Source: an uncultured Acidobacteriota bacterium (GTDB lineage Bacteria; Acidobacteriota; Terriglobia; UBA7540). From it: 64,000 nt of DNA. The translations under genes and the position numbers were made by a program. How positions within the stretch are numbered: position 1 is the stretch's first letter; each line of letters starts with the position of its first letter. The DNA is taken from NCBI GenBank assembly GCA_963804995.1, contig CAWDSK010000006.1, positions 352,001 through 416,000 on the forward strand, in the 5' to 3' direction. Positions 119 to 45,811 of the stretch are shown one piece after another. The notes beneath the pieces are model-generated. The model was not told where the DNA came from, searched no databases, and saw only the letters and a list, made by a program, of their open reading frames with translations.

Positions 119-1609
119 TCACCTCTTCGCCGGTTCCGGCAAGTCAGCTACCAGCCGGAGAGAAACGCTTAGCTCGTCCAACTGAAAGTGGGGGCGAAGA
201 TAAGTAATCGCCCGGTAGCAGCCCGGTTTGCCCTTGATCTCCTCAACGTCCACACGCGCCTCCCGCAGGGGGAATTGGGCTTTGGTGGCTTGATCGGCAT
301 TGTCATCCTGGGTGACGTATTGGCCAATCCAGCGATTCAGGAAGCGCCAACAGTCGTCTCGGGACATGAAGCTGCCGATCTTGTCGCGCATCATGGCCTT
401 GAGGTAGTGAGCGAAACGGCAAGTGGCCATCATGTACGGTAGTTGCGCCGAAATGCGCGCATTGGCGGTGGCGGCATCGCTGTCGTAGATCTTGGGCTTA
501 TTGCAGGATTGGATGCTGAAGAATGCCGCCTTATCCGTGCCCTTGCAATGAACCAGCGGCACCAGCCCCTGGTCTGCCAGCTCCTTCTCGCGCCGGTCGG
601 TGATGGCGATCTCGGTGGGGCACTTGAGCGCCACGTCGCCCTCGTCGGTGTTGAAAGTGTGGGAGGGAAGACCTTCCACCAAGCCGCCGCCCTCAACTCC
701 CCGGATGGCGGTACACCAAGCATACTGCGAGAACGCTGTTGTCATCCTGGCGCCAAGTGCGTAGGCGGCGTTTCCCCAAAGGTATTTGCTGTGGTCCGTC
801 CCATCCACGCCTTCTTCAAAGTTGAAGGCATCGACGGGCACGGTATCCCGGCCGTAAGGTAGGCGCATTAGAACCCGGGGGCAAGTGAGGCAGACATACT
901 TCGCGTCTTCGCTCTGCCGGAATCCCTTCCATTTGGCGAACTCGGTGGTATCGAAGATCCGCCCAATGTCCCGGGGTTGGTCCAACTGCGTGAAGCTTTC
1001 CATGTTCAGGAGCTGCGAAGAAGCCGCGGAGAGGAAGGGGGCATGCGCCGCTCCCGAAATTGCTGCCATCTTTTCCAGAAGCTCAAGGTCTTCCGGATGC
1101 TTGCTGAACTCGTAATCGCCAATTAGCGCGCCATACGGTTGACCGCCGAAAACCCCGAACTCCTCTTCGTAAACTTTCTTGAACGCCGCACTTTGATCGA
1201 ATTCTGGGGCGCGTTGAAGGTCCCGCAGAAGGTCCCTCTTGGAGACATTCAACACCTTGATCTTCAGCATGGCGCTGGTTTCGCTCTGGCTGATCAGGTA
1301 CTTTAGACCTCGCCAACTGGCTTCCAGCTTCTGAAACGTGGGATGGTGCAGAATTTCGTTGAGCTGGATGGAGAGCAAATGGTCAATCTGCGCAATGCGC
1401 GCATTGATCATCGCTTCGGTGTCTTTGGAGACGGTTACCTCCCCCTCCAAGACCTGGGAGATGAACTCTTTCACAAGACTCTTGCCGCGTTCCCGAGTGG
1501 CGGCATCCGTTCCCACCCTCCCGGTCTCGACAATCTGATCGAGAAGAGACTTTTCACCGACCTGCTCGGTGGTCTGTGGTTGTGCGGCCGCTTTTGATTC
1601 CTTAGCCAT
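119..1609 (-). CDS. tssC: Type VI secretion contractile sheath large subunit
   Basis: 496 aa with TssC/VipB motifs FQKLEASWRGL, YEEEFGVFGG, CPTEIAITDRREKEL, LRPHFQLDEL. Confidence 0.97.
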   Translation of the reverse strand: MAKESKAAAQPQTTEQVGEKSLLDQIVETGRVGTDAATRERGKSLVKEFISQVLEGEVTVSKDTEAMINARIAQIDHLLSIQLNEILHHPTFQKLEASWRGLKYLISQSETSAMLKIKVLNVSKRDLLRDLQRAPEFDQSAAFKKVYEEEFGVFGGQPYGALIGDYEFSKHPEDLELLEKMAAISGAAHAPFLSAASSQLLNMESFTQLDQPRDIGRIFDTTEFAKWKGFRQSEDAKYVCLTCPRVLMRLPYGRDTVPVDAFNFEEGVDGTDHSKYLWGNAAYALGARMTTAFSQYAWCTAIRGVEGGGLVEGLPSHTFNTDEGDVALKCPTEIAITDRREKELADQGLVPLVHCKGTDKAAFFSIQSCNKPKIYDSDAATANARISAQLPYMMATCRFAHYLKAMMRDKIGSFMSRDDCWRFLNRWIGQYVTQDDNADQATKAQFPLREARVDVEEIKGKPGCYRAITYLRPHFQLDELSVSLRLVADLPEPAKR

Positions 1610-2135
1610 TGCCCCCCTCCTTCCCTTCTTCCTTCTTGGGTCCGATTTCCGACCGCAATTTGTTTAACTTTTCGGTATTGGTGACGGCGTCCAGCAGGAC
1701 CTCGTCCAACTTATCATTGGTCTGCAACGCGCCCTTTAAATCATTGAGACGGGTACGGAGATCGAGCAGTTCGCGCAAAGGTTTCACCTGCCGGGCGACC
1801 TTCTCGGGCTCGAAGTCTTCCATACTCTTGAAGTTGAGATCGACCTTCAACTGTCCCACATTTTCGTCATCACTCAGCTTGTTGTCGACGGAAAAGGCCA
1901 CGTGAGGTTTCATGCTTTCGAGCACGCTGTCAAAATTATCCAGCGTTATTTCAACAAACCTTCGTTCCTTCAGTTTGGGTAGTGGATCGACGGGCTGGCC
2001 AGTAAAATCACCTAAAACTCCCATTACGAAAGGGAGTTCTTTCGTTTCAATCGCACCACCCGTCTCCACTTCGTAGGTAACGTGGACACGCGGGGGTCGC
2101 ACCCTTGCAAGCTTCTTCTGGACGCTCTCTGCCAT
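1602..2135 (-). CDS. tssB: Type VI secretion contractile sheath small subunit
   Basis: MAESVQKKLARVRPPRVHVTYEVE...ELPFVMGVLGDF. ATG at 2135 with an AAGGAG RBS; overlaps the tssC start. Confidence 0.97.
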   Translation of the reverse strand: MAESVQKKLARVRPPRVHVTYEVETGGAIETKELPFVMGVLGDFTGQPVDPLPKLKERRFVEITLDNFDSVLESMKPHVAFSVDNKLSDDENVGQLKVDLNFKSMEDFEPEKVARQVKPLRELLDLRTRLNDLKGALQTNDKLDEVLLDAVTNTEKLNKLRSEIGPKKEEGKEGGNG

Positions 2136-2187
2136 GGGGTACTCCTTACCTAAGCGTATTTGATGAGCATTTGATCTATGGTGAGCG

Positions 2188-2217
2188 ATTATTGACAAAT
2201 GCCAATGCATTGTCAAT
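2188..2217 (-). promoter_or_regulatory. Sigma70-like promoter for tssBC overlapped by an inverted repeat
   Basis: Minus strand TTGACA-17 bp-AATAAT. Perfect ATTGACAA-N11-TTGTCAAT palindrome at 2191-2217. Confidence 0.65.
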
Positions 2218-2765
2218 CGAAAAGCGACCAGGACTTTCCTCGGCTTTTTAGCTCCCCGAGCGCCCAAGAAAGGCTCAAATTGCGGCTGAGGAGGCGGTGC
2301 TGCGGGAGGACCGGATATTGTGGGCTGCTAAAGCCTGACCGGCTCGAAAGAATCGCAAGCCAACGCTTGGCCTTCATTCCCGCCTGTCCCGGCATGGCCT
2401 CCAGAAATCCCCTTTCGGGGCGCTCCCAGAATCCACTCGAAACCCCAAAGTCAGGGGGCAGTATCTCCAACGCCTTCCCGATCCCTGGTGGAAGCCATTC
2501 AGGTAAGCCTTGGAAACGGTTTGCTTGCGGCAGGTTCGTGGATATTGCCGGACTCTGCCACAATTTAGGGCAACCCGCCGTACGTTTCGTGCCTACCCAG
2601 ATCCAGGGCAGGGGTGTTTTCTTTTGGCCACTAACCTCTAAATACAACAAAGAGCAATTATGAAGGGCAAAGCCCGCAAGAACCACACGCCACATCAAGC
2701 GACGATTCCCTTTGCGGCCTTACTTCTGTTAGAATCAATGCAACACGACGGTTTCATTAGCGCCC

Positions 2766-4799
2766 ATGAAGATCTGCCCGAATTGCCAGCAAAGCTACTC
2801 CGATGAAATTGAGTTCTGTCCGCACGACGGCGCTCGGCTTGCTACCCAAGCGGCGCAAGCCGAAGTGCAGCTTGCCGCCGGACTCTCCCACCGTTTCAGC
2901 ATTGTCCGCCGCCTGGGTGAGGGGGGAATGGGCACGGTCTTTCTCGCCAAGCAGATCCATGTCGGGAATCGCCCCGTGGCCCTGAAGGTTCTGAACCGTA
3001 AGCTGCTGGATGACCCTGAGTTCCTGGAGCGTTTTCAGAATGAAGCGGGTTCGACGGGGAGCATTCATCACCCCAACGTCGTCACCATCCACGAATCCGG
3101 CCAAGCCGATGACGGCACACCCTACATCGCCATGGAGTTTCTGGATGGCAAATCCTTGCGACAAGTGCTCAAAACGGTGGGGGCTTTAAACGTGACGGGG
3201 TGTGCGGAAATTCTGATGCAGGTGGCGCGGGGGCTGAACGCCGCGCACAAGCTCGGCATCATTCATCGCGACCTCAAGCCTGACAACATCTTTCTGATGC
3301 AGGGCGACGAGGGCGAGTTGATCGTCAAGGTCGTCGATTTCGGCATCGCCAAACTGCGCGAGTCAACCACCCACACGCTGACCGGCATGGTGCTCGGCAC
3401 GCCTGCTTACATGTCAGCCGAACAAGCCGCCGGAATGCCGAGTAACGAACTCAACGCGCGCTCCAACGTCTATTCACTGGGGATTGTAGTTTACGAAATG
3501 CTGAGCGGGCGCGTGCCCTTTTATTCCACCACACCCCTCGGCTACGTGCACAAACACATGCTGGAGGCCCCACCGCCTTTTCGCGCCATCGACCCCGGCC
3601 TACCCGTTGCTCCTCAAATTGAAGCCGTGGTGATGAAGGCACTGAAGAAGGACCGGGAGGAACGCTACCAGTCGGCCTTGGAATTCGCGCGCGACTTCGC
3701 GGCAGCCGCCCAGGCATCGCCCCCACCGGAGGTCAGTCAGCCGCTTCCCACAATGAACAGCATCTCGCCGCCAGCAGCGCAGGAGCCCGCTGTGCCCATG
3801 CCGCTGCCCGGGAGCGCATCGGCCCAAGCCGATATTGCCGTTCAAACTACGCCTCCCGCTCCGCCGGCAAGAATTGTTGAAACTCCAAGTACACGGCCGC
3901 AAGGGAGCGAGCCTGCAACGGCAGCAAGCCGCCCGTCCGCTGTGGCTAAACCGCCGCATCTCCGGGCCGTAAAAGAAAGGCCAAGCCGGGTCAAGTACGT
4001 TGTCTTGGGCGTGGTTCTGCTAGCCGTCATCGCGGGCGGGATTTGGTATTTCTCCCGGCCGACGCCGGGGCCCCCACCCCATGTAACGGGCCGGACGGCG
4101 GACGCAGGTAAATCCCCATCTGCGCCGGAAGGCCCGGGTGCGTATGACCCCATGATATCCATCCCCGTCGCGACCTTCGCGATGGGTCGCGACAATGCCC
4201 GCGACCCGGAAGAGACCCCCGCTCATCCCGTCAGCGTCGCGGCATTTAATATGGATAGGAGACCCGTCACGAACGCGCAGTATGCCGAGTTTGTGAAGAG
4301 CACAAGCCACGCTGCCCCTAGTGGGTGGGTGAATGGAACCCCGCCGGAGGGCCAAGCTGAGTGGCCAGTCACGGGCGTTTCCTGGGACGACGCGAACACT
4401 TACTGCACCTCGAAAGGCTTGCGTCTGCCGACGGAGGCGGAGTGGGAATACGCGGCGCGCGGCATGGACGGCAGGCTTTATCCGTGGGGCAATGATTTCA
4501 GCCCGGCACTAACGAACAGCGTCGAGGCAGCTCTGGGCCATCCGGAGAAGGTGGCCTCCCATCGCGATGCCGCCAGTCCGTTCGGCCTTCTCAACATGTC
4601 AGGGAATGTGTGGGAATGGACAGCGGACGATTACAAGCCTTACCCCGGCCATCAACCGGCATTCCAAATCCCCGCGGATGGCAAAGCCATCCGTGGCGGC
4701 TCTTACCAATCGGACAAGCTGCACGTGACCACGACGACCAGAAACCTCAACCACGCCTCCACGCGGTCCACCTCCATAGGTTTCCGCTGCGCCAAGTAG
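2766..4799 (+). CDS. Hanks-type Ser/Thr kinase with transmembrane helix and C-terminal FGE-sulfatase domain
   Basis: GEGGMGTV, VALK, HRDLKPDN, DFG, GTPAYMS; Pro-rich linker; hydrophobic helix; RLPTEAEWEYAAR, NMSGNVWEW, IGFRC. Confidence 0.95.
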   Translation: MKICPNCQQSYSDEIEFCPHDGARLATQAAQAEVQLAAGLSHRFSIVRRLGEGGMGTVFLAKQIHVGNRPVALKVLNRKLLDDPEFLERFQNEAGSTGSIHHPNVVTIHESGQADDGTPYIAMEFLDGKSLRQVLKTVGALNVTGCAEILMQVARGLNAAHKLGIIHRDLKPDNIFLMQGDEGELIVKVVDFGIAKLRESTTHTLTGMVLGTPAYMSAEQAAGMPSNELNARSNVYSLGIVVYEMLSGRVPFYSTTPLGYVHKHMLEAPPPFRAIDPGLPVAPQIEAVVMKALKKDREERYQSALEFARDFAAAAQASPPPEVSQPLPTMNSISPPAAQEPAVPMPLPGSASAQADIAVQTTPPAPPARIVETPSTRPQGSEPATAASRPSAVAKPPHLRAVKERPSRVKYVVLGVVLLAVIAGGIWYFSRPTPGPPPHVTGRTADAGKSPSAPEGPGAYDPMISIPVATFAMGRDNARDPEETPAHPVSVAAFNMDRRPVTNAQYAEFVKSTSHAAPSGWVNGTPPEGQAEWPVTGVSWDDANTYCTSKGLRLPTEAEWEYAARGMDGRLYPWGNDFSPALTNSVEAALGHPEKVASHRDAASPFGLLNMSGNVWEWTADDYKPYPGHQPAFQIPADGKAIRGGSYQSDKLHVTTTTRNLNHASTRSTSIGFRCAK

Positions 4800-4906
4800 T
4801 TATAAAATACGAATGAAGGATGAATTATGAAATGCCAAACTACAGCCGACGTGGTCTTTTCATGATTCAGAATTCATAATTCAGAAAAGCGTCAAGGGAA
4901 AAAGGG

Positions 4907-6466
4907 TCAAGGAGCGAACACTTCCCCGCCACAACGGAACCCGACGCCGAGGAATCTGTCACCTGGGGCGCCCCCGTCGCGGGCGGAAACCCGCACGAAT
5001 TTGGACTTGTGGGCAAAGTTCCCGCCACGAAAAACGCGTTTGGTCCCGCGCGTTGGCCCCGCAGGGTCTTGAGCGGGGTTACTCCGATAGTACTTCTCGT
5101 CATTCTCGGGTCTGTTTCTTCGGTTCCCCCAAGCTAGAACTTGAGCGGGGTTACTCCGATAGTACTTCTCGTCATACCAGTCATTCACCCACTCCAACGC
5201 GTTTCCCAGCACGTCGTATAACCCGAATCCGTTGGCTCGTTTCTCGCCCACCGGGTGCGTCTGGTTTCCGCTGTTGGCATCGTACCAGGCGACTTCGGCG
5301 AGCGGCCCATAGCGTGCCGCAGTGCTTCCCCCTCGCGCCGCATACTCCCACTCCGCTTCCGTGAGCAGTCGCCCTCCCGCCCACGTGCAGTATTCGTGCG
5401 CTTCATTCCAGGTTACCGTCACGATCGCCAGACTGTCATTCGCCCAACCGCGATTGAAAGTGGGCGCCGGCGGCAGCTGCCGCCCGGTGGCTGCTGCGAA
5501 GCGTTTGTAAGCGCCCACCGTAACCTCCGTTTGCCCCAGCCAGAAACCTTTCGTGATGGTCACTTGGTGCGGCGGTTTCTCGTCACCGGCGCATTCGTTG
5601 TCCCCGGGCGAGCAGCCCATTTGAAAGCTGCCCGGCGGAATCCACACGTACTTTAGTCCGTCTTTCGGGTTCTCTCGCACTGTCCCGGGCGGCGGTGGAC
5701 CCGCATCCTCCAGATGTGCCTCGATCCTGGCCCCTTGCCCTGCGGGCACGGAAATGTTCTGCCGATATTCCCTCTTGCCCGACGCCGTTATCCGTAGCTC
5801 GTGCGAGCCCGCAGCCACTTCGGGGATGGCGAATTGTCCCCTCGCGTCCGTTGTGCCCCGGCTGGAATCGTCGAGGAAAACCGCCGCACCAGGCGAGGTC
5901 TGGACCTCTACAGTTCCAGCAAGGCCCGCTAGGGGTGCGTTGACACTGGCCTCTTGCCCAGCCGATACGGTAACCTTCTGCCGATAATCCTTTTTGCCAC
6001 CAGCTGAAATTCGCAATTCATGCGGGCCCGCGGCCACATCGCGGACAGATAGTTGTCCCGCCGCGTCCGTCGTGCCCCGGTTGGAACCGTCAAGGAAGAC
6101 TGCCGCACCGGGCGAAGTCTGGACCACGACAGTTCCTCCAAGGTCTGCAAGCACCGCCGTGATTCTGGTCACTTGCCCCACAACCACCATAACCTTCTGC
6201 TCATGATTCCGTTTTCCGGCAAGCGTAACTCGCAGGGCGTGATCTCCGGGCTTGGGATTTTCAATCACCATGCGGCCTTCCGAATTCGCCTGCCCTTTCA
6301 AAGCATCGTCCAGATAGACTCGCGCATTCGGGGAAGTCTGGATGACGATTTGCGTCGGCTTGTTGGTCTGGGATGTTACTTGAGGGAGAAGTTGGGCGTA
6401 AGCGCACAGGACATTAACCAGCGCCAAAGTCATAGCCAGCAGGGAACAACGGATTCTCGTGCCCAT
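4907..6466 (-). CDS. Secreted protein with three PEGA-like repeats and an FGE-sulfatase domain
   Basis: Signal peptide; three QTSP(G/N)AxV(F/Y)LD repeats; TEAEWEYAARGG, NGFGLYDVLGN, VGFRC. Confidence 0.9.
   Translation of the reverse strand: MGTRIRCSLLAMTLALVNVLCAYAQLLPQVTSQTNKPTQIVIQTSPNARVYLDDALKGQANSEGRMVIENPKPGDHALRVTLAGKRNHEQKVMVVVGQVTRITAVLADLGGTVVVQTSPGAAVFLDGSNRGTTDAAGQLSVRDVAAGPHELRISAGGKKDYRQKVTVSAGQEASVNAPLAGLAGTVEVQTSPGAAVFLDDSSRGTTDARGQFAIPEVAAGSHELRITASGKREYRQNISVPAGQGARIEAHLEDAGPPPPGTVRENPKDGLKYVWIPPGSFQMGCSPGDNECAGDEKPPHQVTITKGFWLGQTEVTVGAYKRFAAATGRQLPPAPTFNRGWANDSLAIVTVTWNEAHEYCTWAGGRLLTEAEWEYAARGGSTAARYGPLAEVAWYDANSGNQTHPVGEKRANGFGLYDVLGNALEWVNDWYDEKYYRSNPAQVLAWGNRRNRPENDEKYYRSNPAQDPAGPTRGTKRVFRGGNFAHKSKFVRVSARDGGAPGDRFLGVGFRCGGEVFAP
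5068..5175. repeat. Exact 36-bp direct repeat separated by a 36-bp unique insert, in frame within the CDS
   Basis: CTTGAGCGGGGTTACTCCGATAGTACTTCTCGTCAT at 5068-5103 and 5140-5175. Confidence 0.95.
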
Positions 6467-7416: not shown

Positions 7417-8475
7417 TTAATGAAAGGGCACCATCCGAAAGGTAGTGTTTAGACCATCGAAGTAAGACGCGCAAACCATAGGACTCGGCGCTCGCAAAGC
7501 ATGCAGCAAAAAGCAGTATAAGTGCGTCGCACCAAGGGTCACGAAGTGGCTTCGAAACGCCCGTTCAACGTCTTCCTCACCGCCGCCTTCCATGGCCATC
7601 CCGACAAGCTGCTTCATGGTTTCGCCTTCGAGTTCCTCACAGGTGCGGCAGTCGATAATAATCGCGAGGCTCGAATTCGCAGCCATCTCTTTGAACGCGG
7701 CTAAATCCGGGCCCTCGCGATTCCCCAAAACCGCGCCAACCACCTCGCACCGGCCGCCCGGGGCGAGGGCTTCCGGCAGCCCGGCCATCAATCGGCGCAC
7801 AATCCCCAGGCCGTCGCCTCCACCGTCCGCAAACCGCGGATACCGCACACCCGGCGGCACCGGCATGAACGGAGGATTGCAGGAAATCACGTCGAACCAT
7901 CGCCCCGCCACCGGCCCGAGAAGATCGCCGTTGACCAGTTCCACCTTGTCCGACAGTCCATTCACAGCGGCGTTGATCCAGAACAGCTTCGCGGCCAGCG
8001 GCTCGATCTCGACCGCGGTTACCCGCGCCGCGGTCCGGGCGCATACCAATGCCTGCGTCCCGACACCGGAACATAGGTCCAGCACGCTGCCCTCCACCCC
8101 TACAAGTGTGCGGCTGAGCTCTATCGAATCATTCCCGTAATAGAACCTTGCCAAGGGCGACACCTTTTCGCAGAACAGCCAGAGCCCCAGGTGGTACACC
8201 AGTCGGTACGCAGGCGCGACCCTGTCCCCGACCCGATTCACCAGGCCGAGCGCTTCAGCCGTCGAGAGCAGTTCGTCCGGCACGCACGCTTCGAAGTCGC
8301 GTCTCTCAACGTCCTGGCCTTCGCCGAACAGACGCGCCAGAACCTGGAATCTCTCCGCAATCTGCGAGGGCCCACTCCCCGGATCGCGGATCAACAATCG
8401 ATTCAATCCGGCCTCCGCCAGCAGGTTCTTCCACTGGACTAGCGTGCGCTTTTGTTCGCTTGTGAGCATCCTCAA
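7417..8475 (-). CDS. Class I SAM-dependent methyltransferase (HemK/MTS-like)
   Basis: VLDLCSGVG motif I, VEIE, NPPF, DGGGDGL. Confidence 0.9.
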   Translation of the reverse strand: MRMLTSEQKRTLVQWKNLLAEAGLNRLLIRDPGSGPSQIAERFQVLARLFGEGQDVERRDFEACVPDELLSTAEALGLVNRVGDRVAPAYRLVYHLGLWLFCEKVSPLARFYYGNDSIELSRTLVGVEGSVLDLCSGVGTQALVCARTAARVTAVEIEPLAAKLFWINAAVNGLSDKVELVNGDLLGPVAGRWFDVISCNPPFMPVPPGVRYPRFADGGGDGLGIVRRLMAGLPEALAPGGRCEVVGAVLGNREGPDLAAFKEMAANSSLAIIIDCRTCEELEGETMKQLVGMAMEGGGEEDVERAFRSHFVTLGATHLYCFLLHALRAPSPMVCASYFDGLNTTFRMVPFH

Positions 8476-8735
8476 CTCAGTGCATCTCGGTCATTAACTT
8501 GCGATAACTTAAGTTGTAACGCGACGTTTTCAGAACGTTGGATTGCTTGGAGCTTGCGATTATTCTGCCAAATACGGACGCCGAAACAAGAGTCCCCCAC
8601 CACACCAATCGCGACGATTGCGCCGACGATCTGCGCCCAAATCTCCAGATGTCCGATCAATGTTTCCTGAGCTGCTTTTGTCAGAACACCTTTAGGGACC
8701 GAAGACGGGTCGTTTAAAGTGAACTCTCTCTGCAA
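8472..8735 (-). CDS. Small hypothetical membrane protein, possibly truncated
   Basis: GGAGGG RBS, one hydrophobic helix; overlaps the methyltransferase start. Confidence 0.45.
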   Translation of the reverse strand: MQREFTLNDPSSVPKGVLTKAAQETLIGHLEIWAQIVGAIVAIGVVGDSCFGVRIWQNNRKLQAIQRSENVALQLKLSQVNDRDALS

Positions 8736-23451: not shown

Positions 23452-23720
23452 CCCCCGGGCCCCGTTCCTCAACCCGCCCGGCCTTAGAAAATGCCCACAA
23501 GCAGAAGGGCGCTGACCGTGGTTGTCCGCTCAAAGTCCTGGCGAACCTGCGCGATGTGTCAATCGCTGTTTTGCGAGCGGAGCGGCTGAAATAAGAGGAA
23601 GCGAAACCAGTGCGAAGCTGAGGGCTGAGAGCTGTCAGCCTTTAGCTATCGGCTGTGAGCTGTAAGCTACCGTGGGGCATCGGGCGGGAGAAAAGGCCTA
23701 CGGGCAGGACGGCTCGCCGG

Positions 23721-23749
23721 CCATTAAGATCGGTGGACTTTCAGCCGCG
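23721..23749 (+). repeat. 29-bp direct repeat, left border of the defence cluster
   Basis: CCATTAAGATCGGTGGACTTTCAGCCGCG; one mismatch to 33037-33065. Confidence 0.9.
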
Positions 23750-23849
23750 CCGGCGCAGCGCTTTTCCGCCAGCCGCCATTGATGCTATCTTAAAGGCATT
23801 ACTTGAAAATAAAAGGGGGGGGTGTATACTCCCCGCGACGGGAGTGACG

Positions 23850-25166
23850 ATGTTTTTCAAGACTTCCCTCCGCCAACTCTACCTGGAAGACGAGCGGCCC
23901 TGGCTGGTGGGCTTTAGCGGCGGCAAGGACAGCACCATGCTGGCGTCGCTGATTTTCGACGCCGTCCTGTCCATTCCCACTGAACAGCGAAAGAAGCCCA
24001 TCTCGGTCCTTTGCTCGGACACGCGCGTGCAGATTCCCGCCATTGCCGAAATGATCGAAGGCACGCTGGACCGCATGCGGAAGTGCTCCGAGCAGCACGA
24101 CCTCAATATTGAGGCCAACCATGTAGCGCCGACCTTTAGGTCGGCACGTGCTGACCTAAAGGTCAGCGCTACAACCGAAGAATCCTTTTTGGGTCAACAT
24201 CATCGGCCGGGGCCACCCGCCCCCCAACCGCGTCTTCCGCTGGTGCACGCAGCGCATGAAGATTGATCCGGTAAATGCCTTGGTGAAACAGCGTGTGGGC
24301 CATTGGGGAGAGGCCATCCCGCACCTCGGAGCGCGCCGCGCCGAAAGCTCCACCCGCGCCCAAACCATGGCGGCCCGCCAAACGCGCAACGGATTGCGGC
24401 GTCATCCTGACTTGCCCCGCGTCTGGGTGTCGAATGAATTCCTCTCCGCCGAGGACGTTTGGGCCGACAGAACCCCAACCCCCGAGGCAATCGCCCCCTC
24501 TACAAGCTTTACGCCAGTGCCTCGAACGGTGAGTGCCCCATCCAAATTGACACCAGCACTCCCAGTTGTGGCAACAGCCGCTTCGGCTGCTGGACGTGCA
24601 CGGTGGTTGACCGCGACAAGGCCAGCGAAGGACTGCTGGCCAGCGGCGACGAGCGCATGGAAAAACTGATTGAATTCCGCGAAAAGCTCCTGTTTTTCCG
24701 CGACCCCGCCAATGGCAAGCGCGACACCCGGCGCATGAACGGCAACGAAGGCAACGGCCCCTTGCTGATTACTGCCCGTCGCGAACTGCTGACCCAGTTA
24801 CTAAAGTTGCAGGAAGGGGTTCAATTACAGCTCATCAGTCCCGAGGAACTCCTCCTAATTCAGCAATTGTGGAAAGCCGCCCGCGACCCCGACGACGGGC
24901 GCGGCGTGGCGCGCATCGTCAACCGGCAGAGAGGTGTGATCATGAATGCCGACCTGAGCGAACTCAGCCGTTTGCGCGAAATTGAAAACAAAGTCGCCGC
25001 CGAAAAAGGCATTAACGTCGAAACCCTCCGGCGCATGGTCGCCAAGGTGGAAGAATACAGCGAAAGCCACCGCGCCCACGGCCTCCCCGGTGATTTGCTG
25101 AATATCCTCAAGGACGATCTAGAAAACGAGTCGGTGGTCGCAATGCAACAATCCCGAGTCATGTAG
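23850..25166 (+). pseudogene. dndC: DNA phosphorothioation sulfurtransferase DndC-like, frameshifted
   Basis: PWLVGFSGGKDST, FWVNIIGRGHPPP..FRWCTQRMKIDP, GARRAES, GECP, SCGNSRFGCWTCTVV spread over three frames, with small deletions and a REP insertion. Confidence 0.88.
24122..24173. repeat. GTAG REP doublet inserted in dndC
   Basis: TGTAGC GCCGACC TTTA GGTCGGC..GCTGACC TAAA GGTCAGC GCTACA. Confidence 0.85.
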
Positions 25167-25349
25167 GGGCCAATATTATTTGGCCATATACAATGCCAAC
25201 CAGCCGCCCGCAGTCTATTTCTCTTCACTCAGTGATCAACCTACTGATCAAGAGTGTTCAATTGATCGCCTACCAACCGTGGATCAACTTGACAACTAAC
25301 ACGCCTCGATCAACGATCCCAACAGGCGCGGCACTTGGCGCCACCCAGC

Positions 25350-25965
25350 ATGGCAGACACCCTACCCAACGTCCCGGAAGTCGCAAGTGCGTTACCCCCG
25401 CCGGTCTTTCATGACGCGAAGCACCACGTAAAAATTTACCAGGGTGACTGCCTGGAGATTCTGGCCGCCATTCCCCCCGATTGCGTTGACCTGATCTTCG
25501 CCGACCCGCCGTATTTCCTGTCGAATGACGGCATCACCTGCCACGCGGGCAAGATGGTTTCGGTCAACAAGGGGAAGTGGGATAAGTCCCAGGGGGCTGA
25601 CCTCGACCATGAATTCAATCGTGCCTGGCTTGCCGCCTGCCAGCGCGTGCTGAAGCCCCACGGCAGCATCTGGGTTAGCGGCACCAGCCACGTGATTCAC
25701 TCCGTGGGCTTTGCCATGCAGCAACTGGGATTCAAGCTGCTGAACGATATCAGTTGGGTCAAGCCCAACCCGCCGCCCAACCTTTCCTGCCGCTACTTCA
25801 CCCACGCTACGGAGACACTGATCTGGGCGGCCAAAAATAAGAAAAGCAAGCACACGTTCAATTACAAGCTGATGCGGGAAATGGCGGGCGGAAAACAGAT
25901 GAAAAGCGTATGGCAGATTGCCGCGCCCGGTCGCGCCGAGAAACGCTTCGGCAAACACCCTACAC
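25350..25965 (+). pseudogene. Beta-class amino-methyltransferase (DpnA/M2.DpnII-like), 3'-truncated
   Basis: IFADPPYFLSN, VSVNKGKWDK, PNLSCRYFTH, KQMKSVW. Homology ends at KHPT, before QKP and the FxGxG SAM-binding motif. Confidence 0.85.
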
Positions 25966-26075
25966 GAACAAACCAACGCGATTGCATTCAGGGACGGTCA
26001 GTTGTATGTTATGCGTCGGTCGACCTTTAAAAGCGGAAATATTGGCTGGAGAAACGGGAGGGTAACAGGCCTACC

Positions 26076-27572
26076 ATGGCAGAGCACAAAGTATTACTCG
26101 TTGCTAACGAAGGCATCTTCGTGGGTCTCGCCAAACAGAACATGCTATTTCATCAGTGCATCAGTGAACTGGTAGACAACTCAATCGCTGCGACGCCGCA
26201 AAACCGGAAGTTTCGAATCGAAGTTCTGTTTTCGCCTAGACAGGACTCACCCGAGGTTGTGGATGTATACGTTGCAGACAACTGTGCAGGAATGACTTTG
26301 GAGCATTTAAAGAAAGCACTTCAACTGGGCGAATCTGCGAGTACGGAGAGTCGGCTCAACGAGCATGGATTCGGTCTGAAGAACGCACTGGCAACCCTTT
26401 CGGGAGGTAATGGACCCTGGAAGATATGGACAAAAACCGCTAGTTGCCCACAGGTTTCTTCGGCCGAGGGTCCGTTTAGATCTGAAATGGTAGTTAATGA
26501 CTCAGATGCTTTTCCCACCGATAATTTCCTGCCTCCCGATCTAGGAACATTGATAAAAGTCCCCGTCAAAAGAAGCTTCATTCAATCTGTTCAGGGTAGA
26601 GGTGCACCGACGATAGACCTGAGCCATTTGCGCGACTGGCTAATCGAGCATCTCGGAGTTTTCTACAGAGGTTACCTCGAACAAGATGATAAAACCTATG
26701 ATAACAGCGGAGTCATAGTCGTATCCATTGGCAATAACACTTTACAGGTACCACCAGTTCCCGTGCCGTTGGGAAATGTAAAAACTGATTACATAGACCT
26801 TGAGCTTGGCGGCACCGTGCAGAGGCTCAAATACAGGAGCGGTACACTCGACTTGGTAAAACGCGATGTGCTCGTGCGAGGCAATAAAGCAAAATTTTAC
26901 TATCAGAACAACATCCCGAGCCAAGGAATCGACATACGGCTTGGAAAGAGGGTCATTGCTACTAGGCAGTTCGAAACCATTTGGAAAACGAAAGATGGAC
27001 AAGATCGGCTGGCCCGACATAATAACTACAACGATTTCGCTGGGGAATTGCTTATCCCCGAATTGCCAAGAGGAGTGCTGACAACCGTAAACAACAAGAC
27101 GGATTTCAATTTGGATGACCCTGACTGGGCAAAGATCTTTTCCGAGCTCGGCAAAATACCCCCGCCGAAGCAAGTTAGGGAGATGAGTGAAGCAGAAATC
27201 AAGAAACAGTGGATCAAGATGCTTAGAGCAACAAATCCTGAGGATACGGTAACTGATGAAACATGCGTGTGGCCTACAGGTACTGCGATCGACGTTTACC
27301 GCCGAACGCCACAAGAGAAGATAATTATTTACGAGCTTAAGGTGGGATCAGGAGCACCCTTAAACCTCTACCAATTGAAAATGTATTGGGACGGTCTCGT
27401 AGTTGACAAGAAGGAATACCCGAGCGAGGCGGTTCTAATTGTGGAGGACTTCAGCAATAATTTGGAAGAGATGGCGAACATGATGAATAAACTGTCGCCG
27501 CCTGAGGGGAGTAAGCCCTATAATTTCAAGATTGAGAAATTGAAAGACAAAGGCCTCACCGGGAAAGATTAG
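26076..27572 (+). CDS. GHKL/MORC-like ATPase fused to a C-terminal PD-(D/E)XK-like nuclease
   Basis: ISELVDNS, DNCAGM, HGFGLK, GT; C-terminal IDVY...IYELK...QLKMY. More AT-rich than the flanks. Confidence 0.8.
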   Translation: MAEHKVLLVANEGIFVGLAKQNMLFHQCISELVDNSIAATPQNRKFRIEVLFSPRQDSPEVVDVYVADNCAGMTLEHLKKALQLGESASTESRLNEHGFGLKNALATLSGGNGPWKIWTKTASCPQVSSAEGPFRSEMVVNDSDAFPTDNFLPPDLGTLIKVPVKRSFIQSVQGRGAPTIDLSHLRDWLIEHLGVFYRGYLEQDDKTYDNSGVIVVSIGNNTLQVPPVPVPLGNVKTDYIDLELGGTVQRLKYRSGTLDLVKRDVLVRGNKAKFYYQNNIPSQGIDIRLGKRVIATRQFETIWKTKDGQDRLARHNNYNDFAGELLIPELPRGVLTTVNNKTDFNLDDPDWAKIFSELGKIPPPKQVREMSEAEIKKQWIKMLRATNPEDTVTDETCVWPTGTAIDVYRRTPQEKIIIYELKVGSGAPLNLYQLKMYWDGLVVDKKEYPSEAVLIVEDFSNNLEEMANMMNKLSPPEGSKPYNFKIEKLKDKGLTGKD

Positions 27573-28038
27573 CGGGTTGGATACTGCCAACTCAATCTTG
27601 AACCTGGTCTACACGCCAATCGCCTAGGCAGGTTTCATTACCCGTAAAACAGCAATCGCAATGCGCCTCGGGATGGGACGGGCGGCCAGGTCAGGTGCAG
27701 TCCACCCTCCTCCGTGGTTTTTAATTCATCGCGCATTCAAATGTTTATTTTACTCACGCGAAACGGCGAACGATCGACAGACGAACGCAAATTACGCGTA
27801 TGTCTGCGCTTCCCTCGATGACAAATCCGCAGTCAATTGGGTTTGTACTGACCTTTGCTTGATATACAATGCTGGCTTCTGGCTGTTTGCCCTTACACAG
27901 GATCTTGTTGCATAGGCGTCCTCGGTATACAATATCTAGGGGTCATGTTACGGATGCTTTCTGTCGATAAGATCCTGCGGCAACAAAGCAACCAGGATGC
28001 CCTCGTGGACAACCGACCAGAGGTGTTCATCCCAATGG

Positions 28039-28938
28039 GTGACTGACTTGAACCAACAATTGCACGACATACAAAACACGCCTCATCAGCCCTACCTATT
28101 CAACTGGAGAGGGGATGACGTAAGGCCAAAACCGTTCCTCAAGTGGGCTGGGGGTAAATCCCACCTTTTACCCCTATTGCAGCGGTGTGTGCCTAAGAAC
28201 TTCGGTCGATATTTTGAACCTTTTTTGGGAGGAGGCGCTCTATTCTTTGGCCTTTGTCCTCCAAATGCCGTATTAAGTGACTCTAACCAGGAGTTGATTC
28301 ACTGTTACAAAATTATCCGGGACCGCCCTGAAGAAGTAATTCAAAGACTTACCAAAATGAAAGTCGGTGAAATCGAGTTTTACAAAATCAGGGCGTTGGA
28401 TGCTGAGTCACTTTCCGACATCGCCCGCGCTGCCAGGTTCATCTATCTTAACAAGACCTGTTTCAATGGTCTTTACAGGGTCAACAAACAGGGCATTTTT
28501 AATACTCCATTTGGCCGAAACAAAATCGCCTCATTCGTGGATCCCGAAAACTTGAGACGGGTCAGCAGGGCACTTCGAGAGGCAAGGCTAGAGTGTGCCG
28601 ACTACGGTGCCGTGCTAGAATCTGCGGCAGCGGGCGATTTTATTTATCTAGATCCCCCATATATGCCGATTGGAAAATATTCAGATTTCAAGCGGTATAC
28701 GAAAGAGCAGTTTCATGAGGCAGACCATGAGGAATTAGCCGAGACCTTCCGTGTTTTGGCGAAGAAAGGCTGCTTCGTTCTTATGAGCAATTCCCATCAT
28801 GAGAAGGTCGCGTCCCTATTCTCGGATTTCAACCAAGTGACTGTATCAGTTCCTCGCTTCGTGAGCTGCAAAGGGAATGGGCGGGGAAAAGTTAACGAAC
28901 TCCTTATTTCCAACTGTTCGTTGCCTGAGATTACATGA
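28039..28938 (+). CDS. D12-class DNA adenine methylase (Dam/DpnM-like); start uncertain
   Basis: PFLKWAGGK, EPFLGGG, FNGLYRVN..FNTPFG, YLDPPY, MSNS. Confidence 0.93.
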   Translation: MTDLNQQLHDIQNTPHQPYLFNWRGDDVRPKPFLKWAGGKSHLLPLLQRCVPKNFGRYFEPFLGGGALFFGLCPPNAVLSDSNQELIHCYKIIRDRPEEVIQRLTKMKVGEIEFYKIRALDAESLSDIARAARFIYLNKTCFNGLYRVNKQGIFNTPFGRNKIASFVDPENLRRVSRALREARLECADYGAVLESAAAGDFIYLDPPYMPIGKYSDFKRYTKEQFHEADHEELAETFRVLAKKGCFVLMSNSHHEKVASLFSDFNQVTVSVPRFVSCKGNGRGKVNELLISNCSLPEIT

Positions 28939-29948
28939 GCTTTCCGGCCACCAAATACATGGGTAGCAAGCAAGCTATTCTCCCCTTCATCTTGGAACAT
29001 GTCAGGAGACTCGATTTCAAAAAGGCGCTGGACGCATTCTCGGGGTCGGCCTGCGTCGCTTACGGTCTCAAGCAACTCGGGGTTGAGGTGCATGCAAATG
29101 ATTTCCTGCAATTCACCTATCATATAGCCCGAGCCACCATTGAAAATAACGCGACACGTCTTACCGATGCAGACCTCCGTCAGCTCTTGAAGCCGAACAA
29201 AAGTGCGCAAGACTTTATTCATAAAACCTTCGGGTCACTCTATTTTTCTGCGGAAGATGACCGTTTCCTTGACGATCTGTGGGCGAACATCCAGGAATTG
29301 CGAAGTCCGCTGAAAAAGTCGCTCGCACTGGCAGCCGCCTGCCGCGCGGCCATGAAGAAACGACCCCGCGGAATCTTTACGTTCACTGGTAAGAAGGGTT
29401 GGGACGGTCGACAAGACCTTCAGTTAACCATGAGAGACCAGTTCTTGCGCGCGGTGATGCAATTTAACAATGCTGTGTGGTCTAACGGGAAAGCCAACCG
29501 CGCAATGTGCGGGGACGTATTCCATGTGGAGCCGGATCGATACGACTTAGTTTACATCGACACTCCGTACATTAGCCCCTATTCGGATTGTGACTATACG
29601 CGCCGATACCACTTCGTGGAAGGTTATTGTAGTTACTGGCAAGACTGCGAAATCATGGCCAGCACAACTACCAAAAAGATTCGGTCGTATGAAACTTCCT
29701 TCTCGACCAAGGCTGGTGCATATGATGCGTTCCAACGATTGTTCCATCACTTCCGGAAATCGAAATTGGTAGTCTCGTATTCGTCCAATTCCATTCCGAA
29801 TAAAAAAGAGATGATCGAGTTGCTTCAGCACGAGAAGAAAGATATAACCGTTTACGAAGCGGCTCACCGCTACAATCACGGCAATCACCGACACAAAGTC
29901 GGCGATAACAATAACGCGGTCATCGAATATCTGTTCGTTGCGACATGA
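28935..29948 (+). CDS. Second D12-class DNA adenine methylase
   Basis: KYMGSK, DAFSGS, YIDTPY (DPPY variant), DYTRRYHFVEG, SYSS, EYLF; ATGA overlap with the upstream gene. Confidence 0.9.
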   Translation: MSFPATKYMGSKQAILPFILEHVRRLDFKKALDAFSGSACVAYGLKQLGVEVHANDFLQFTYHIARATIENNATRLTDADLRQLLKPNKSAQDFIHKTFGSLYFSAEDDRFLDDLWANIQELRSPLKKSLALAAACRAAMKKRPRGIFTFTGKKGWDGRQDLQLTMRDQFLRAVMQFNNAVWSNGKANRAMCGDVFHVEPDRYDLVYIDTPYISPYSDCDYTRRYHFVEGYCSYWQDCEIMASTTTKKIRSYETSFSTKAGAYDAFQRLFHHFRKSKLVVSYSSNSIPNKKEMIELLQHEKKDITVYEAAHRYNHGNHRHKVGDNNNAVIEYLFVAT

Positions 29949-31183
29949 AAATCATACTGAATGACCACACCGCGGCGGCGAATTTTTCAACCGCTCTTGG
30001 AGAACTGATCGAGGGCGCTGACACGTTGTCCATGGCAGTCGCCTACCTTCAACGAGGCGGCTGGGACCTGTTGCGGCGGCGCATCGCCGGACTGAGTCTC
30101 GCGAAGATGCGAATGGTTTGCACCGATCAATTAGGTATAACGCAACCCACGGCTGTCAGCCGGGCATTGTCCAGCGGCGTTCAGATTAGGAACTTTACTG
30201 GGAACGTCACCTACCACCCAAAGGTCTATCTGGCCCACGACGCCAAGGGTCGGCCAATACGGTTCCTGGTATCAAGTGCCAATTTGAGCTTTTCGGCCTT
30301 CACTCACAGCGTGGAGGCCGGCATCCTAGGTTCCGACCCGACCGGCCTACGTACCCTTAGCGGATGGTTCGACGACCTGTTTAGGAATCGAAGCTCCCAG
30401 TTCACGCCTGAACGGCTGCTTGAGATGGAAGCGGCGTGGCGTGTCGCGGCAGCCCGGCGAACGCAAGCACGTCTTCGCGTCCGACGTGCGCTGGTGATTC
30501 CGGAGGGCGTGGCCCCTGCCCCACTCGAGCCTGAAGATATTGATGCTTTGGAAGACGTGTTCGCGACAATCCAGCTTCCCATCGGCCTTTTGAACATGGA
30601 CTATGCTGGGAACAACATCCGAAATGTCGGGCGAGCTCGGGAAGTACTGGCCGACTGGAACAGGGTGCGGATCGGGACGGGTGGCGCCTCTGGCAAACAG
30701 CGAAGTGAATTGAAGCTGCTGGGTTTTGCGGAAGGGCGGGACTTGACCCGACTAGGCCGCGCCGCTTCCGCTGCTGGTAGCAGGGAGGAAGTTGCGCGCC
30801 TGTGGTGCATGTGGCTACAGCGGACTCCCGACGGTGAACTGGCAGCGATCAATGAGAGGCTCTTGGTCGCGAAGCGCGTGTTCGCACAGTTCTGGCGGTT
30901 GCAGCCCGAAGTGCGGGATTATTTTCTCGCGAATGCCGAGAGTCCGGCAGATCGCCCGACGGCCCAAACTATCGAACTCCTCTGCAATGCCCGCGACGTT
31001 GTTCAGGAATTGTCTCTCGATGACATCCGAACCCTCACGCCGTTGCTGGAGCAGCCTCAGCGACTGCCACAGTTTGTCAGAGAGGCGATTGCGGACTACC
31101 AGGACAACAAGGGGATGCGTGGTTGGGATTTCCCTGACCGGCGGATTGTTCCTGTCGCGTGGCGGGAAGCTGCAGGTGGGTGA
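29945..31183 (+). CDS. Phospholipase D-family nuclease, putative restriction endonuclease
   Basis: AVAY, YHPKVY, SSANLS, VEAG in the N-terminal 150 aa; C-terminus unrecognised; ATGA overlap with the methylase. Confidence 0.8.
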   Translation: MKIILNDHTAAANFSTALGELIEGADTLSMAVAYLQRGGWDLLRRRIAGLSLAKMRMVCTDQLGITQPTAVSRALSSGVQIRNFTGNVTYHPKVYLAHDAKGRPIRFLVSSANLSFSAFTHSVEAGILGSDPTGLRTLSGWFDDLFRNRSSQFTPERLLEMEAAWRVAAARRTQARLRVRRALVIPEGVAPAPLEPEDIDALEDVFATIQLPIGLLNMDYAGNNIRNVGRAREVLADWNRVRIGTGGASGKQRSELKLLGFAEGRDLTRLGRAASAAGSREEVARLWCMWLQRTPDGELAAINERLLVAKRVFAQFWRLQPEVRDYFLANAESPADRPTAQTIELLCNARDVVQELSLDDIRTLTPLLEQPQRLPQFVREAIADYQDNKGMRGWDFPDRRIVPVAWREAAGG

Positions 31184-31218
31184 TCGGGCACTTAGGTGAG
31201 ATATTCTATTCGTTAAGA

Positions 31219-31416
31219 TCACCGCTTTCGTGCTTTGGCAATCGCTCTCTCAGCGATTAGCTTGACGCGGTGGCCCGTTTCAGTGTTTGGGTTTCCTACG
31301 GTCAATAAGATGTCCTCAAGTGCTGTAAGCACATCGTCCAGCTCGGATTTAAGTTGTGCGGGAGTTTTCCGTTTGATTGGTTTGTCACTCTGGATTGCTT
31401 TTCCCATCGTTACCAT
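31219..31416 (-). CDS. Small hypothetical protein
   Basis: 65-aa helical ORF with GGAGG upstream. Confidence 0.45.
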   Translation of the reverse strand: MVTMGKAIQSDKPIKRKTPAQLKSELDDVLTALEDILLTVGNPNTETGHRVKLIAERAIAKARKR

Positions 31417-31460
31417 CCTCCGCCTACGAAGCGGGTCATTTTAGGACGTAGCTCTATACG

Positions 31461-31649
31461 TTATTCACACCCCTCGTAAAACCTGAGCCTGGGAAACTCT
31501 GAGAGCATGTCACGCCAAGCTAATCGGTCTGCTTCGGCGTCCGATTTGCCCTCATCCAAGTAGAAGCAGAAGGCGAATGCCCAGCAGTGATCTTCCTGCG
31601 GTGTGAGTATCGCGCGCCGTCTTTCCGTACGCCGAACATTTCCCGCCAC
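31461..31649 (-). CDS. Small hypothetical protein
   Basis: 62-aa ORF with GAGGAGG RBS and GTG start. Confidence 0.5.
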   Translation of the reverse strand: MAGNVRRTERRRAILTPQEDHCWAFAFCFYLDEGKSDAEADRLAWRDMLSEFPRLRFYEGCE

Positions 31650-31711
31650 AGCCGCCCTCCTCAGTCAGAATGCATTTCTCAAGATAATCGGCAATATTTT
31701 CAAACACTTTA

Positions 31712-31897
31712 GTTCGTCTTCGGGCGCTCAACAAGAAAGATTTTATCCTTCAAGAAGTTTACGCGTTCGCCGCCCAGCTTCAAGCGCTGCATCCCGACAA
31801 CCGGCACGTGCCGGACAAGATCCGGCAGCAATTACAAGTCTTGCGCGACCTGGGGTTCATCGAATTCCTGGGCGGGGGGCGGTATCGGTGCTTGTAG
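31712..31897 (+). pseudogene. DpnI (Dam-replacing) C-terminal winged-helix remnant, not in the ORF track
   Basis: FILQEVYAFAAQLQALHPDNRHVPDKIRQQLQVLRDLGFIEFLGGGRYR then stop; no start codon or catalytic domain. Confidence 0.88.
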
Positions 31898-31994
31898 CGC
31901 AGGGCCCGCTCTCCGGCCCTGCGGCTCTTCCCCGGGGTATGTCAAGGCCGCGCCGTGAAAAACGCATCGCGGTGGAAAAGCCGCAAGGCCGGAG

Positions 31995-32718
31995 AGCGGG
32001 CCTTGCCGCCGCCCGTAGGTACGGTCAGCCGAAAGAATCCGGGAAGCTGCTCGGCGGCGCTTACCGCAGCAAGATAAACTTCGTGACGGATGCGGTTTAA
32101 GGGGTCAGCTTGCTTCCCACTCAAGGCAAGTTGGTTCAATTCAAAAACTCGCGACAAGTCCTCAAGAGAGGTCGGTCGCGGTCGGATGGCTGACTTCTCG
32201 GGATTGAAGTGACGCTCTGTATCCAGAAAGTCGCTGTCTACCAACGCTGAGAACAGCATTCGGAGGAAGAAGTCGGCCCCAAGCTCTGAGCGAACAAACA
32301 CGGGCAGCCGAAGGGGGCGCTCGGGCTCAAGCAACAAACCGGAACGCTGTGCGATGGCCAACGCCTCGCCCGTGCGCCCTTCATTGGTTTTTTCGCGTAG
32401 CCAGTTCTTCAGGTCTGCGCGGGACGGCAAGCCTCCATGGTGTCCGGCGACGAGGAAAGCCAGCGCGTCGCAAACCTTCGAGGCCATCAGCGCACCTGCA
32501 CCCTTGTGATCCGGTCCGTGGGGGGCAGCAGGTGCGCTTAGGTAGGCTTGGAAGTCGGGATGAAATTTGCCGAGGTCGTGCCACAAACCAACCCAGTGGC
32601 CCAGCTCTTCGGCCTCAAACTCTCCGCCACATTTCGACGCAAGCTTGGCGACCTCTTGTAAGTGGGTCGCTAGGTCGTGCCTGACGCCACGATAGTTCTC
32701 TGAATGCGCGAAGGCCAT
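31995..32718 (-). pseudogene. cas3: Cas3, HD nuclease domain present, truncated at helicase Walker A
   Basis: AHS..LATHL, LWHDLGK, DH, GHHGGL, RMLFSALVDSDFLDT, LTVPTGGGK, then homology is lost. No other cas genes or array nearby. Confidence 0.9.
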
Positions 32719-33036
32719 TCCGCGCAATTCTCGCACATGGCCTGGAGATTTCGTACTGATTTTGGAAAGGCGAAGCAGGCAGCCATCAGAGTTGTCCTTC
32801 ACCTCCGCCGCTATTTGCTTTGCCCGCACAAGGCCGCAGACTTCATGGACAAGTCTGCGCTACAACCTGCGGCTTCAGACCCAGAGGATTTTGAGGGCAG
32901 TGCCCCCGCGCTCGAAGTCCTGGATAATGGTCAGCAAGCGCTGGGCGTTAGCATGTGCCGACCTCCCGACCAAGTCCGGTTCCGGTCGGCGCTACAAAGA
33001 CAGGCGATGCGGTCCGGGAGGCCGAACAGTCGCCCA

Positions 33037-45621: not shown

Positions 45622-45811
45622 ACCACCCCGGCGCTCGGCCCCGATGATCAATTTGGAAAGAACACGCTATCGGGGCTCGGCCCCGATGATCAATTTGGAA
45701 AGAACACGCTATCGGGGCTCGGCGCGCCACCCCTCCTCAACTGAGGAGGGGAGTTCTGCAACAACTCCCCTCCTGATTCAGGAGGGGTGGCGCCGAAGGT
45801 GACGGGGTGGT
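45622..45811. repeat. Palindromic repeat containing a tandem 42-bp duplication
   Basis: ACCACCCC...GGGGTGGT outer inverted repeat; GCTCGGCCCCGATGATCAATTTGGAAAGAACACGCTATCGGG at 45633-45674 and 45675-45716. Confidence 0.88.

What the first reader, a model, noticed from the sequence alone, without database searches (positions are those of the whole stretch)
5068..5175. Exact 36/36/36 repeat-spacer-repeat inside a gene: possible ectopic Cas1-Cas2 spacer integration
Seen: two identical 36-bp copies flank a unique 36-bp insert (TCTCGGGTCTGTTTCTTCGGTTCCCCCAAGCTAGAA). The insert does not resemble either flank, so this is not a simple tandem duplication. The 72 bp keep the frame and change the usual FGE segment DWYDEKYYRSNPAQ-DPAGP by adding VLAWGNRRNRPENDEKYYRSNPAQ. 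The duplicated site holds a weak hairpin (CGGGG-TTA-CTCCG). Established: Cas1-Cas2 inserts a 30-40-bp fragment and duplicates a repeat-length target, and can do so off-target; IS target duplications are far shorter. Inference: a recent off-target adaptation event inserted a foreign peptide into a secreted lectin-like domain. A cas3 remnant shows the lineage has carried type I CRISPR.
Basis: partly seen in the sequence, partly recalled or inferred. Interest (0 to 1): 0.78.

Follow-up and report, generated by a model that had tools for sequence, protein, structure and literature searches.

The report
Lone CRISPR-like insertion scar in gene
A soil-type acidobacterium has 36 bases of untraceable DNA, flanked by an exact 36-base duplication, inserted in frame into a secreted-protein gene; this is most likely a misplaced CRISPR spacer left by a CRISPR system the genome has since lost, a known kind of accident that cannot be proven here from one unconfirmed case.

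Summary
The 36/36/36 unit is really in the assembly. It is a clean insertion: the syntenic orthologue (84% identical DNA) has one copy of the 36-mer, and 1 of 110 related FGE motif pairs has this length. The shape fits Cas1-Cas2 off-target integration (neo-CRISPR), and congeners have 36-37/33-38 arrays. A type I-C-like cas3, 81-85% identical to full-length proteins and without stops, is cut at residue 242, 27 kb away; in related operons cas1, cas2 and the array follow cas3. But this 92%-complete genome shows no cas1, cas2, cas4 or array, holds only this one such scar, the target does not resemble congener repeats, no protospacer was found, and no reads could confirm it. Best reading: fossil off-target spacer from a lost CRISPR system (0.55); rivals are an assembly artefact, template-switch filler and an IS remnant. 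The scan noted the same kind of scar before in other genomes, with many scars and their own arrays (unchecked notes). Known kind, weak example, low interest.

The parts
5068..5103 (.). 36-nt copy 1 of the duplicated target (coding sequence of the host gene, residues 455-467)
   Evidence: single copy at the empty site of G017, 32 of 36 bases identical
5104..5139 (.). 36-nt insert of unknown origin (candidate spacer); 53% GC; read in frame as residues 443-455
   Evidence: best other ungapped match in the genome 24 of 36; no exact match in three collections; 0 of 300 other class genomes at up to 3 mismatches
5140..5175 (.). 36-nt copy 2 of the duplicated target (residues 431-443); which copy is the original cannot be told
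4907..6466 (-). Host gene, 519 aa: likely signal peptide, three PEGA/carboxypeptidase-regulatory-like beta-sandwich repeats, C-terminal FGE-sulfatase domain
   Evidence: N-terminal helix 4-23 in the model; signal peptide judged by eye, not by a predictor
4931..5650 (-). FGE-sulfatase (SUMF1-like) domain that carries the 24-residue insertion; the cysteine-rich catalytic loop of FGE is replaced by a cysteine-free stretch
   Evidence: PF03781 152 bits; alignment to solved FGE chains
31993..32718 (-). Truncated type I-C-like cas3 (first 242 of about 710 residues, HD domain, cut just after the Walker A motif); circumstantial witness of a lost CRISPR locus
   Evidence: 81-85% identical to full-length Cas3 P0137-P0139 with no gap or stop; no other part of that Cas3 in the genome

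Best explanation
A single off-target, full-site spacer integration by a Cas1-Cas2 integrase. The integrase joined the two 3' ends of a processed 36-bp fragment to opposite strands of ordinary coding DNA, 36 bp apart, and gap repair duplicated those 36 bp. The likeliest source is the type I-C system whose cas3 stub lies 27 kb away and whose downstream cas5-cas8-cas7-cas4-cas1-cas2-array block has since been deleted; an unassembled or transient system with 36-nt repeats is the alternative source. The scar has no leader and no effector complex, so it has no immune function; it adds 24 residues to a non-catalytic FGE domain and is probably neutral or mildly harmful. Shown: the insertion, its geometry, its recency (identical copies, empty orthologue), the cas3 stub. 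Inferred: the enzyme, the order of events, the foreign origin of the insert, the effect on the protein.
For: Exact duplication with no target base lost, collinear with the empty site of G017. Insert has no source in the genome, no IS-end copy number (12-nt prefix and 11-nt suffix are single-copy), is no patchwork of local sequence (p 0.23-0.86 in 9 settings) and no adenine-mutated copy of a template. Unit period 72 is found in congener arrays: I-C 37/33-36 (10 of 43 spacers are 35), I-B/III-linked 37/35-37, and 36/35-38 in L105; I-C 37-nt repeats with periods 70-74 in L223. 14 of 28 congeners have a Cas1 match. The cas3 stub is undecayed (195 of 242 residues identical to P0139, no gaps), and in L096, L222 and L223 the other cas genes lie downstream of cas3. 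Off-target integration is documented in vivo in E. coli (passages citing Nivala 2018 in 10.1101/148544, and PMC7054753) and in vitro (PMC6895254; PMC6698737).
Against: No cas1, cas2 (28), cas4 (47), RAMP (49), full cas3 (48) or array (8, 93) in a 92%-complete, 9-contig assembly, and no copy of eight congener repeat seeds (best 20-22 of 28). One scar only in 7.55 Mb. The I-C arrays seen in relatives have 37- or 32/33-nt repeats, not 36, and a 36-nt spacer is rare there (2 of 43). Target not similar to congener repeats (best p 0.05, family-wise 0.38; L223 p 0.61-0.97), whereas off-target sites in vitro resemble repeats or leader-repeat junctions and favour G at the attack site; here the two 5' bases are C and A. 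No protospacer. No exact scar of CRISPR size in 1.6 Mb of three cas1-bearing congeners. One contig on record, no reads.
Confidence: 0.55

Rival explanations
1. Assembly or base-calling artefact of a long-read metagenome assembly: a minority or single-read insertion carried into the consensus, or a short inverted triplication (A, reverse complement of A, A) whose middle arm is miscalled by nanopore in both read directions, which would make insert and repeat equal in length.
For: The sequence is on record on one contig only and no run holds it. Long-read metagenome assemblies contain false duplications and indels supported by few or no reads (10.1101/2025.04.22.649783, passages). Nanopore miscalls the trailing arm of inverted duplicates (PMC7229812, part 2 of 4). 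The insert matches the reverse complement of the repeat at 13 of 36 bases (p 0.054 shuffle, 0.096 genomic), and a 43/43/43 unit on C3 does so at 18 of 43 (p 0.012, 0.028).
Against: Those identities are weak, post hoc (four orientations tested) and fade with gaps (p 0.06-0.61); same-strand identity is also 13 of 36. The C3 unit is two copies of a REP family with 43 matches in the genome, so it is no independent case. Miscalled arms are reported to be shorter than the template. Perfect hairpins with arms up to 33 bp are intact in this assembly. The sequencing platform is not known to me.
Confidence: 0.2
2. Replication or repair accident: the nascent strand left the template, copied or captured 36 nt from unrelated DNA or cDNA, and rejoined 36 nt upstream, giving a duplication with filler. 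The equal lengths are coincidence.
For: Needs no Cas1. The genome has another duplication-plus-filler unit of non-CRISPR size (30/20/30 at C3:1021182) and 49 reverse-transcriptase matches.
Against: No donor in the genome and no excess of local short matches; no Ku; nothing in this mechanism favours 36 and 36.
Confidence: 0.16
3. Remnant of an insertion sequence that makes long target duplications, with almost all of the element deleted.
For: This genome has elements flanked by 20-29-nt duplications and a 21/16/21 scar whose 16-nt filler is the end of one such element (C2:613018). IS1549 and IS1634 make 8-514-bp duplications (PMC2266710, passage).
Against: Those local targets are strong hairpins, this one is not; neither end of the insert is multi-copy and it has no terminal inverted repeat beyond about 4 nt (and direct inspection).
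Confidence: 0.07

Closest known systems
Non-canonical (off-target) Cas1-Cas2 spacer integration, 'neo-CRISPR' units (Nivala, Shipman and Church 2018; paper not held; seen only through passages of 10.1101/148544, PMC7054753 and PMC6698737)
   Same: One spacer-sized insert between two identical copies of ordinary chromosomal DNA of repeat length, outside any array.
   Different: There Cas1-Cas2 was over-produced in E. coli type I-E with its own array present. Here no cas1, cas2 or array is assembled, the size is 36/36, the target shows no significant likeness to congener repeats, and no protospacer is known.
Type I-C CRISPR-Cas loci of Terriglobia relatives (L096, L101, L222, L223)
   Same: The window's cas3 stub belongs to this group by sequence; their arrays have unit periods of 67-74 nt that include 72.
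   Different: Their repeats are 37 or 32/33 nt, not 36; the rest of the operon and the array are missing here.
Insertion sequences with long target duplications (IS1549/IS1634; the hairpin-duplicating elements of this genome)
   Same: Long exact target duplication; a short filler can remain (21/16/21 at C2:613018).
   Different: No IS end in the insert; the target is not a strong hairpin.
FGE-sulfatase (SUMF1-like, PF03781) domain proteins; nearest solved chains 6muj, 2q17, human FGE, 5nxl, TvpA 2y3c, PvdO 5hha
   Same: Domain and core motifs of the host protein.
   Different: No catalytic cysteine loop; three beta-sandwich repeats in front; a private 24-residue insertion that 109 of 110 related motif pairs lack.

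Membership tests
Neo-CRISPR / off-target Cas1-Cas2 integration | Exact duplication of a previously single-copy target, no bases lost | tested here: met
   (empty site in G017)
Neo-CRISPR / off-target Cas1-Cas2 integration | Spacer-sized insert unrelated to the target | tested here: met
   36 nt
Neo-CRISPR / off-target Cas1-Cas2 integration | cas1 and cas2 present in the same genome | tested here: not met
   0 matches; assembly 92% complete; only a cas3 stub
Neo-CRISPR / off-target Cas1-Cas2 integration | Duplication and insert lengths equal those of the host's own array | tested here: inconclusive
   no own array; congener arrays 37/33-36, 37/35-37, 36/29-32, 36/35-38, 32-33/34-35, 29/31-35
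Neo-CRISPR / off-target Cas1-Cas2 integration | Target resembles the repeat or leader-repeat junction | tested here: inconclusive
   the cognate repeat is unknown; against 11 distinct congener repeats best p 0.05, family-wise 0.38; L223 not similar
Neo-CRISPR / off-target Cas1-Cas2 integration | Protospacer with a PAM | tested here: inconclusive
   no source found; collection scans were exact-match only
Neo-CRISPR / off-target Cas1-Cas2 integration | Present in the DNA molecules (read support) | not testable with these tools
   only runs with 5-6% of words, held as contigs of relatives
Functional CRISPR array | Three or more repeats, a leader, an effector module | tested here: not met
   two copies; flanks are coding DNA of 52-66% GC; no RAMP or cas operon match
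IS with long target duplication | Element ends (terminal inverted repeats, other copies) inside the duplication | tested here: not met
   single-copy 12-nt prefix and 11-nt suffix; ends unlike those of the elements listed
Diversity-generating retroelement product | Insert equals a template changed only at adenines | tested here: not met
   best site has 5 non-A mismatches, as for three shuffles (3-6)

The most novel reading that the evidence does not exclude
The unit is a real, fixed fossil of a CRISPR integrase that the genome has since deleted, and the in-frame insert has been kept as a new 24-residue surface loop on a secreted ligand-binding domain. Off-target scars would then date lost CRISPR systems, and Cas1-Cas2 would be a source of protein novelty.
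Probability: 0.1. Interest if true: 0.55.

Novelty: new member of a known kind. Interest (0 to 1): 0.27.

Why it matters
If real, it is one more natural case of a reaction shown mainly with over-produced Cas1-Cas2 in E. coli, with the twist that the scar outlived the CRISPR locus. Such scars could record which CRISPR type a lineage carried and show the mutagenic cost of adaptation. As a single, read-unconfirmed case without integrase, array or protospacer it adds little; genomes with many scars and their own array are better test beds.

Tried and rejected
Source of the insert: no exact match in viral, metagenome (19) or GTDB contigs; blastn gave 2 phage and 15 plasmid records at E 4-5, chance level; 0 of 300 other class genomes; the 16-nt best match in the genome is within the shuffle range (6 of 150 shuffles reach 16 or more). 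Same-species alleles: none among the 80 loci kept of 513 (best 63% protein identity; scan stopped at 26 of 64 parts); the three runs laid hold only relatives, one contig joint (5078 to 5159, 8 letters between) fits an empty site in a relative and says nothing on this strain. Equal-length rule: the 43/43/43 and 25/26/25 units are copies of REP families (43 and 108 matches), and congeners match only the intron part of the C3 locus, so I dropped them as parallels. Apparent likeness of the target to the L100 repeat was not significant. 72-nt tandem duplication with later divergence: rejected, the insert's peptide lacks the conserved DPxGP motif and 16 of 36 is post hoc. Paralogue gene conversion: rejected. 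DGR, Ku-type end joining and local patchwork: no support. Arrays beside the closest full-length Cas3 proteins could not be seen: the nearest GTDB hit (59%, G346) lies 3 kb from its contig's start. Literature: Nivala 2018 not held; a search for natural orphan scars with target duplication returned 0 papers at 5 of 6 terms, and searches showed none by title or abstract start; this is no proof that none is in print. Supplements were not read.

Full report
Observation. The repeat finder and a direct slice give two identical 36-nt copies at 5068-5103 and 5140-5175 around a 36-nt insert. They lie in a 519-aa ORF on the minus strand (4907-6466) with three beta-sandwich repeats and a C-terminal FGE-sulfatase domain. 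The frame is kept and 24 residues are added. The genome (G000, 7.55 Mb, 9 contigs, 92% complete) is a Terriglobia by the names of close homologues of a neighbouring protein.

It is a recent, private insertion. All 7 congener loci and 11 in-genome paralogue hits aligned lack the 24 residues. In 120 homologous proteins, 109 of 110 motif pairs are 15-28 residues apart and only this protein has 50. The syntenic orthologue in G017 (84% identical DNA) has one copy of the 36-mer (32 of 36 bases the same) with both flanks collinear, so no target base was lost. The exact protein is on record on one contig, in a cluster of one. No run holds this strain: three runs share 5-6% of words and, when laid, give only relatives. 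Read support is therefore untested.

It stands alone. Of 56 exact repeat pairs (23 nt or more, period 45-100), 6 have an insert unlike their surroundings. Of 1329 pairs of 14 nt or more, 78 are low-copy and isolated, and this is the only one of 16 nt or more with equal repeat and insert length. Allowing mismatches, 42 of 407 pass the filters, and besides this unit only a 33/30 pair with two mismatches, whose insert partly resembles its repeat, has CRISPR-like size. The 43/43/43 and 25/26/25 units are REP copies. One filter run on 2.0 Mb of four congeners and 0.23 Mb of metagenome loci gave 4 hits, none an exact unit of CRISPR size; the nearest is a REP palindrome, 35/36 with one mismatch.

CRISPR machinery. 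No match for Cas1, Cas2 (28), Cas4 (47) or RAMPs (49); the Cas3 helicase model gives 3 weak hits under its cut-off (48). The 17 three-copy periodic regions are all tandem or low-complexity repeats. ORFs from ten congener cas loci found no cas counterpart except the cas3 stub. That stub (31993-32718) is the first 242 residues of a type I-C-like Cas3, 81-85% identical to full-length proteins of 706-717 aa, without gap or stop, and cut just after the Walker A motif. In related loci the effector genes, cas4 and cas1 lie downstream of cas3, followed by cas2 and the array where the locus reaches that far (L096, L222, L223). I infer a deletion of that block, recent enough to leave the stub undecayed; that it overlapped in time with the insertion is plausible, not shown. 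14 of 28 congeners have a Cas1 match. Their arrays are 37/33-36 and 32-33/34-35 (I-C), 37/35-37 (I-B and III-linked), 36/29-32 and 36/35-38 (type II-like) and 29/31-35. A period of 72 is common among them, an exact 36/36 is not typical of the I-C arrays (36-nt spacer in 2 of 43).

Sequence signatures are missing. The target is not significantly like any of 11 distinct congener repeats (best p 0.05, family-wise 0.38) or the L223 repeat (my slice there was one base off). In vitro, off-target sites resemble leader-repeat junctions and favour G (PMC6895254, passages) or share features with repeats (PMC6698737, passages); here the two 5' bases are C and A. The insert has no source in the genome (best 24 of 36), in three collections by exact match, in phage or plasmid records or in 300 other genomes of the class, so no PAM can be read. 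Failing to find a protospacer is usual for soil organisms (own knowledge) and weighs little.

Rivals. Long target duplications are not unique to Cas1: this genome has elements with 20-29-nt duplications and a 21/16/21 scar that keeps one IS end, and IS1549/IS1634 make 8-514 bp (PMC2266710, passage); but the insert has no IS end. Artefact remains open: long-read metagenome assemblies carry unsupported duplications and indels (10.1101/2025.04.22.649783, passages), and nanopore miscalls the trailing arm of inverted duplicates (PMC7229812, part 2 of 4). The insert's likeness to the reverse-complemented repeat is only 13 of 36 (p 0.05-0.10). Template-switch filler is possible, but there is no donor and no local patchwork, no Ku and no DGR-type template.

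Effect on the protein. The domain lacks the catalytic cysteine loop of FGE, so it is probably a binding domain (the lectin-like fold label is recalled, not from a call). AlphaFold2 with 49 sequences gave pLDDT under 50 for residues 385-411 and 417-509 of the insertion protein, while the insert-free homologue P0047, folded with the other 47 rows, had block means of 54-92 over its domain. One pair of models is a weak hint that the insert disturbs the fold; it gives no support to a tolerated, displayed peptide.

Verdict. A clean duplication of CRISPR-repeat length around a spacer-sized orphan sequence, in a lineage that has lost a type I-C locus nearby, is best read as an off-target spacer integration (0.55). 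It works like a neo-CRISPR unit, but membership cannot be claimed as shown, because cas1 and cas2 are not in the assembly and no array, protospacer or read backs it. The reaction is known (Nivala 2018, not held, seen through passages). Earlier notes of this scan describe the same kind of scar, often dozens per genome with the host's own array; these are unchecked, but they did raise my prior from 0.25 and my tolerance for a one-base length difference. Interest is low.

Noticed in passing
L105 (G002:C97) 8324-8576: A type II-like 36-nt repeat, identical to the one that has 29-32-nt spacers in L103, here carries spacers of 35, 36 and 38 nt, beside a 1109-aa ORF and a cas1 in two pieces; perhaps filled by another Cas1.
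   Followed up: partly
G000:C2:613018, C5:1182915, C3:102334, C5:393700: Elements with 20-29-nt hairpin target duplications, a 163-nt miniature with similar ends, and a 21/16/21 scar that keeps only one element end.
   Followed up: partly
G000:C3:1070590: 43/43/43 unit: two identical REP copies around a unique 43-nt linker, next to a group II intron copy; other family members match at 39 of 43 or less.
   Followed up: partly
G000:C3:1021182: 30/20/30 duplication of what looks like a gene's 3' end, with a short filler that begins with part of the repeat.
   Followed up: no
window 23655-32829: Defence-island debris: dndC split in two ORFs, three adenine methylase ORFs, an ATPase, a PLD-domain protein and the truncated cas3.
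   Followed up: partly
window 119-6466: Type VI secretion sheath gene(s) and a Ser/Thr kinase-FGE fusion converge on the FGE-domain host gene; the arrangement is conserved in G017. The genome has at least 11 other FGE-domain loci whose C-terminal stretch varies strongly.
   Followed up: no
window 45629-45712: Near-exact 42-nt tandem duplication (98%); a similar 42-nt tandem is at G000:C6:1664486.
   Followed up: no
L098 (G022:C243): Cas12b next to a Cas4-Cas1 fusion in a congener; array not on the contig.
   Followed up: no
G000, whole genome: 49 reverse-transcriptase matches, 38 of them with a 528-aa open frame, consistent with a group II intron burst.
   Followed up: no
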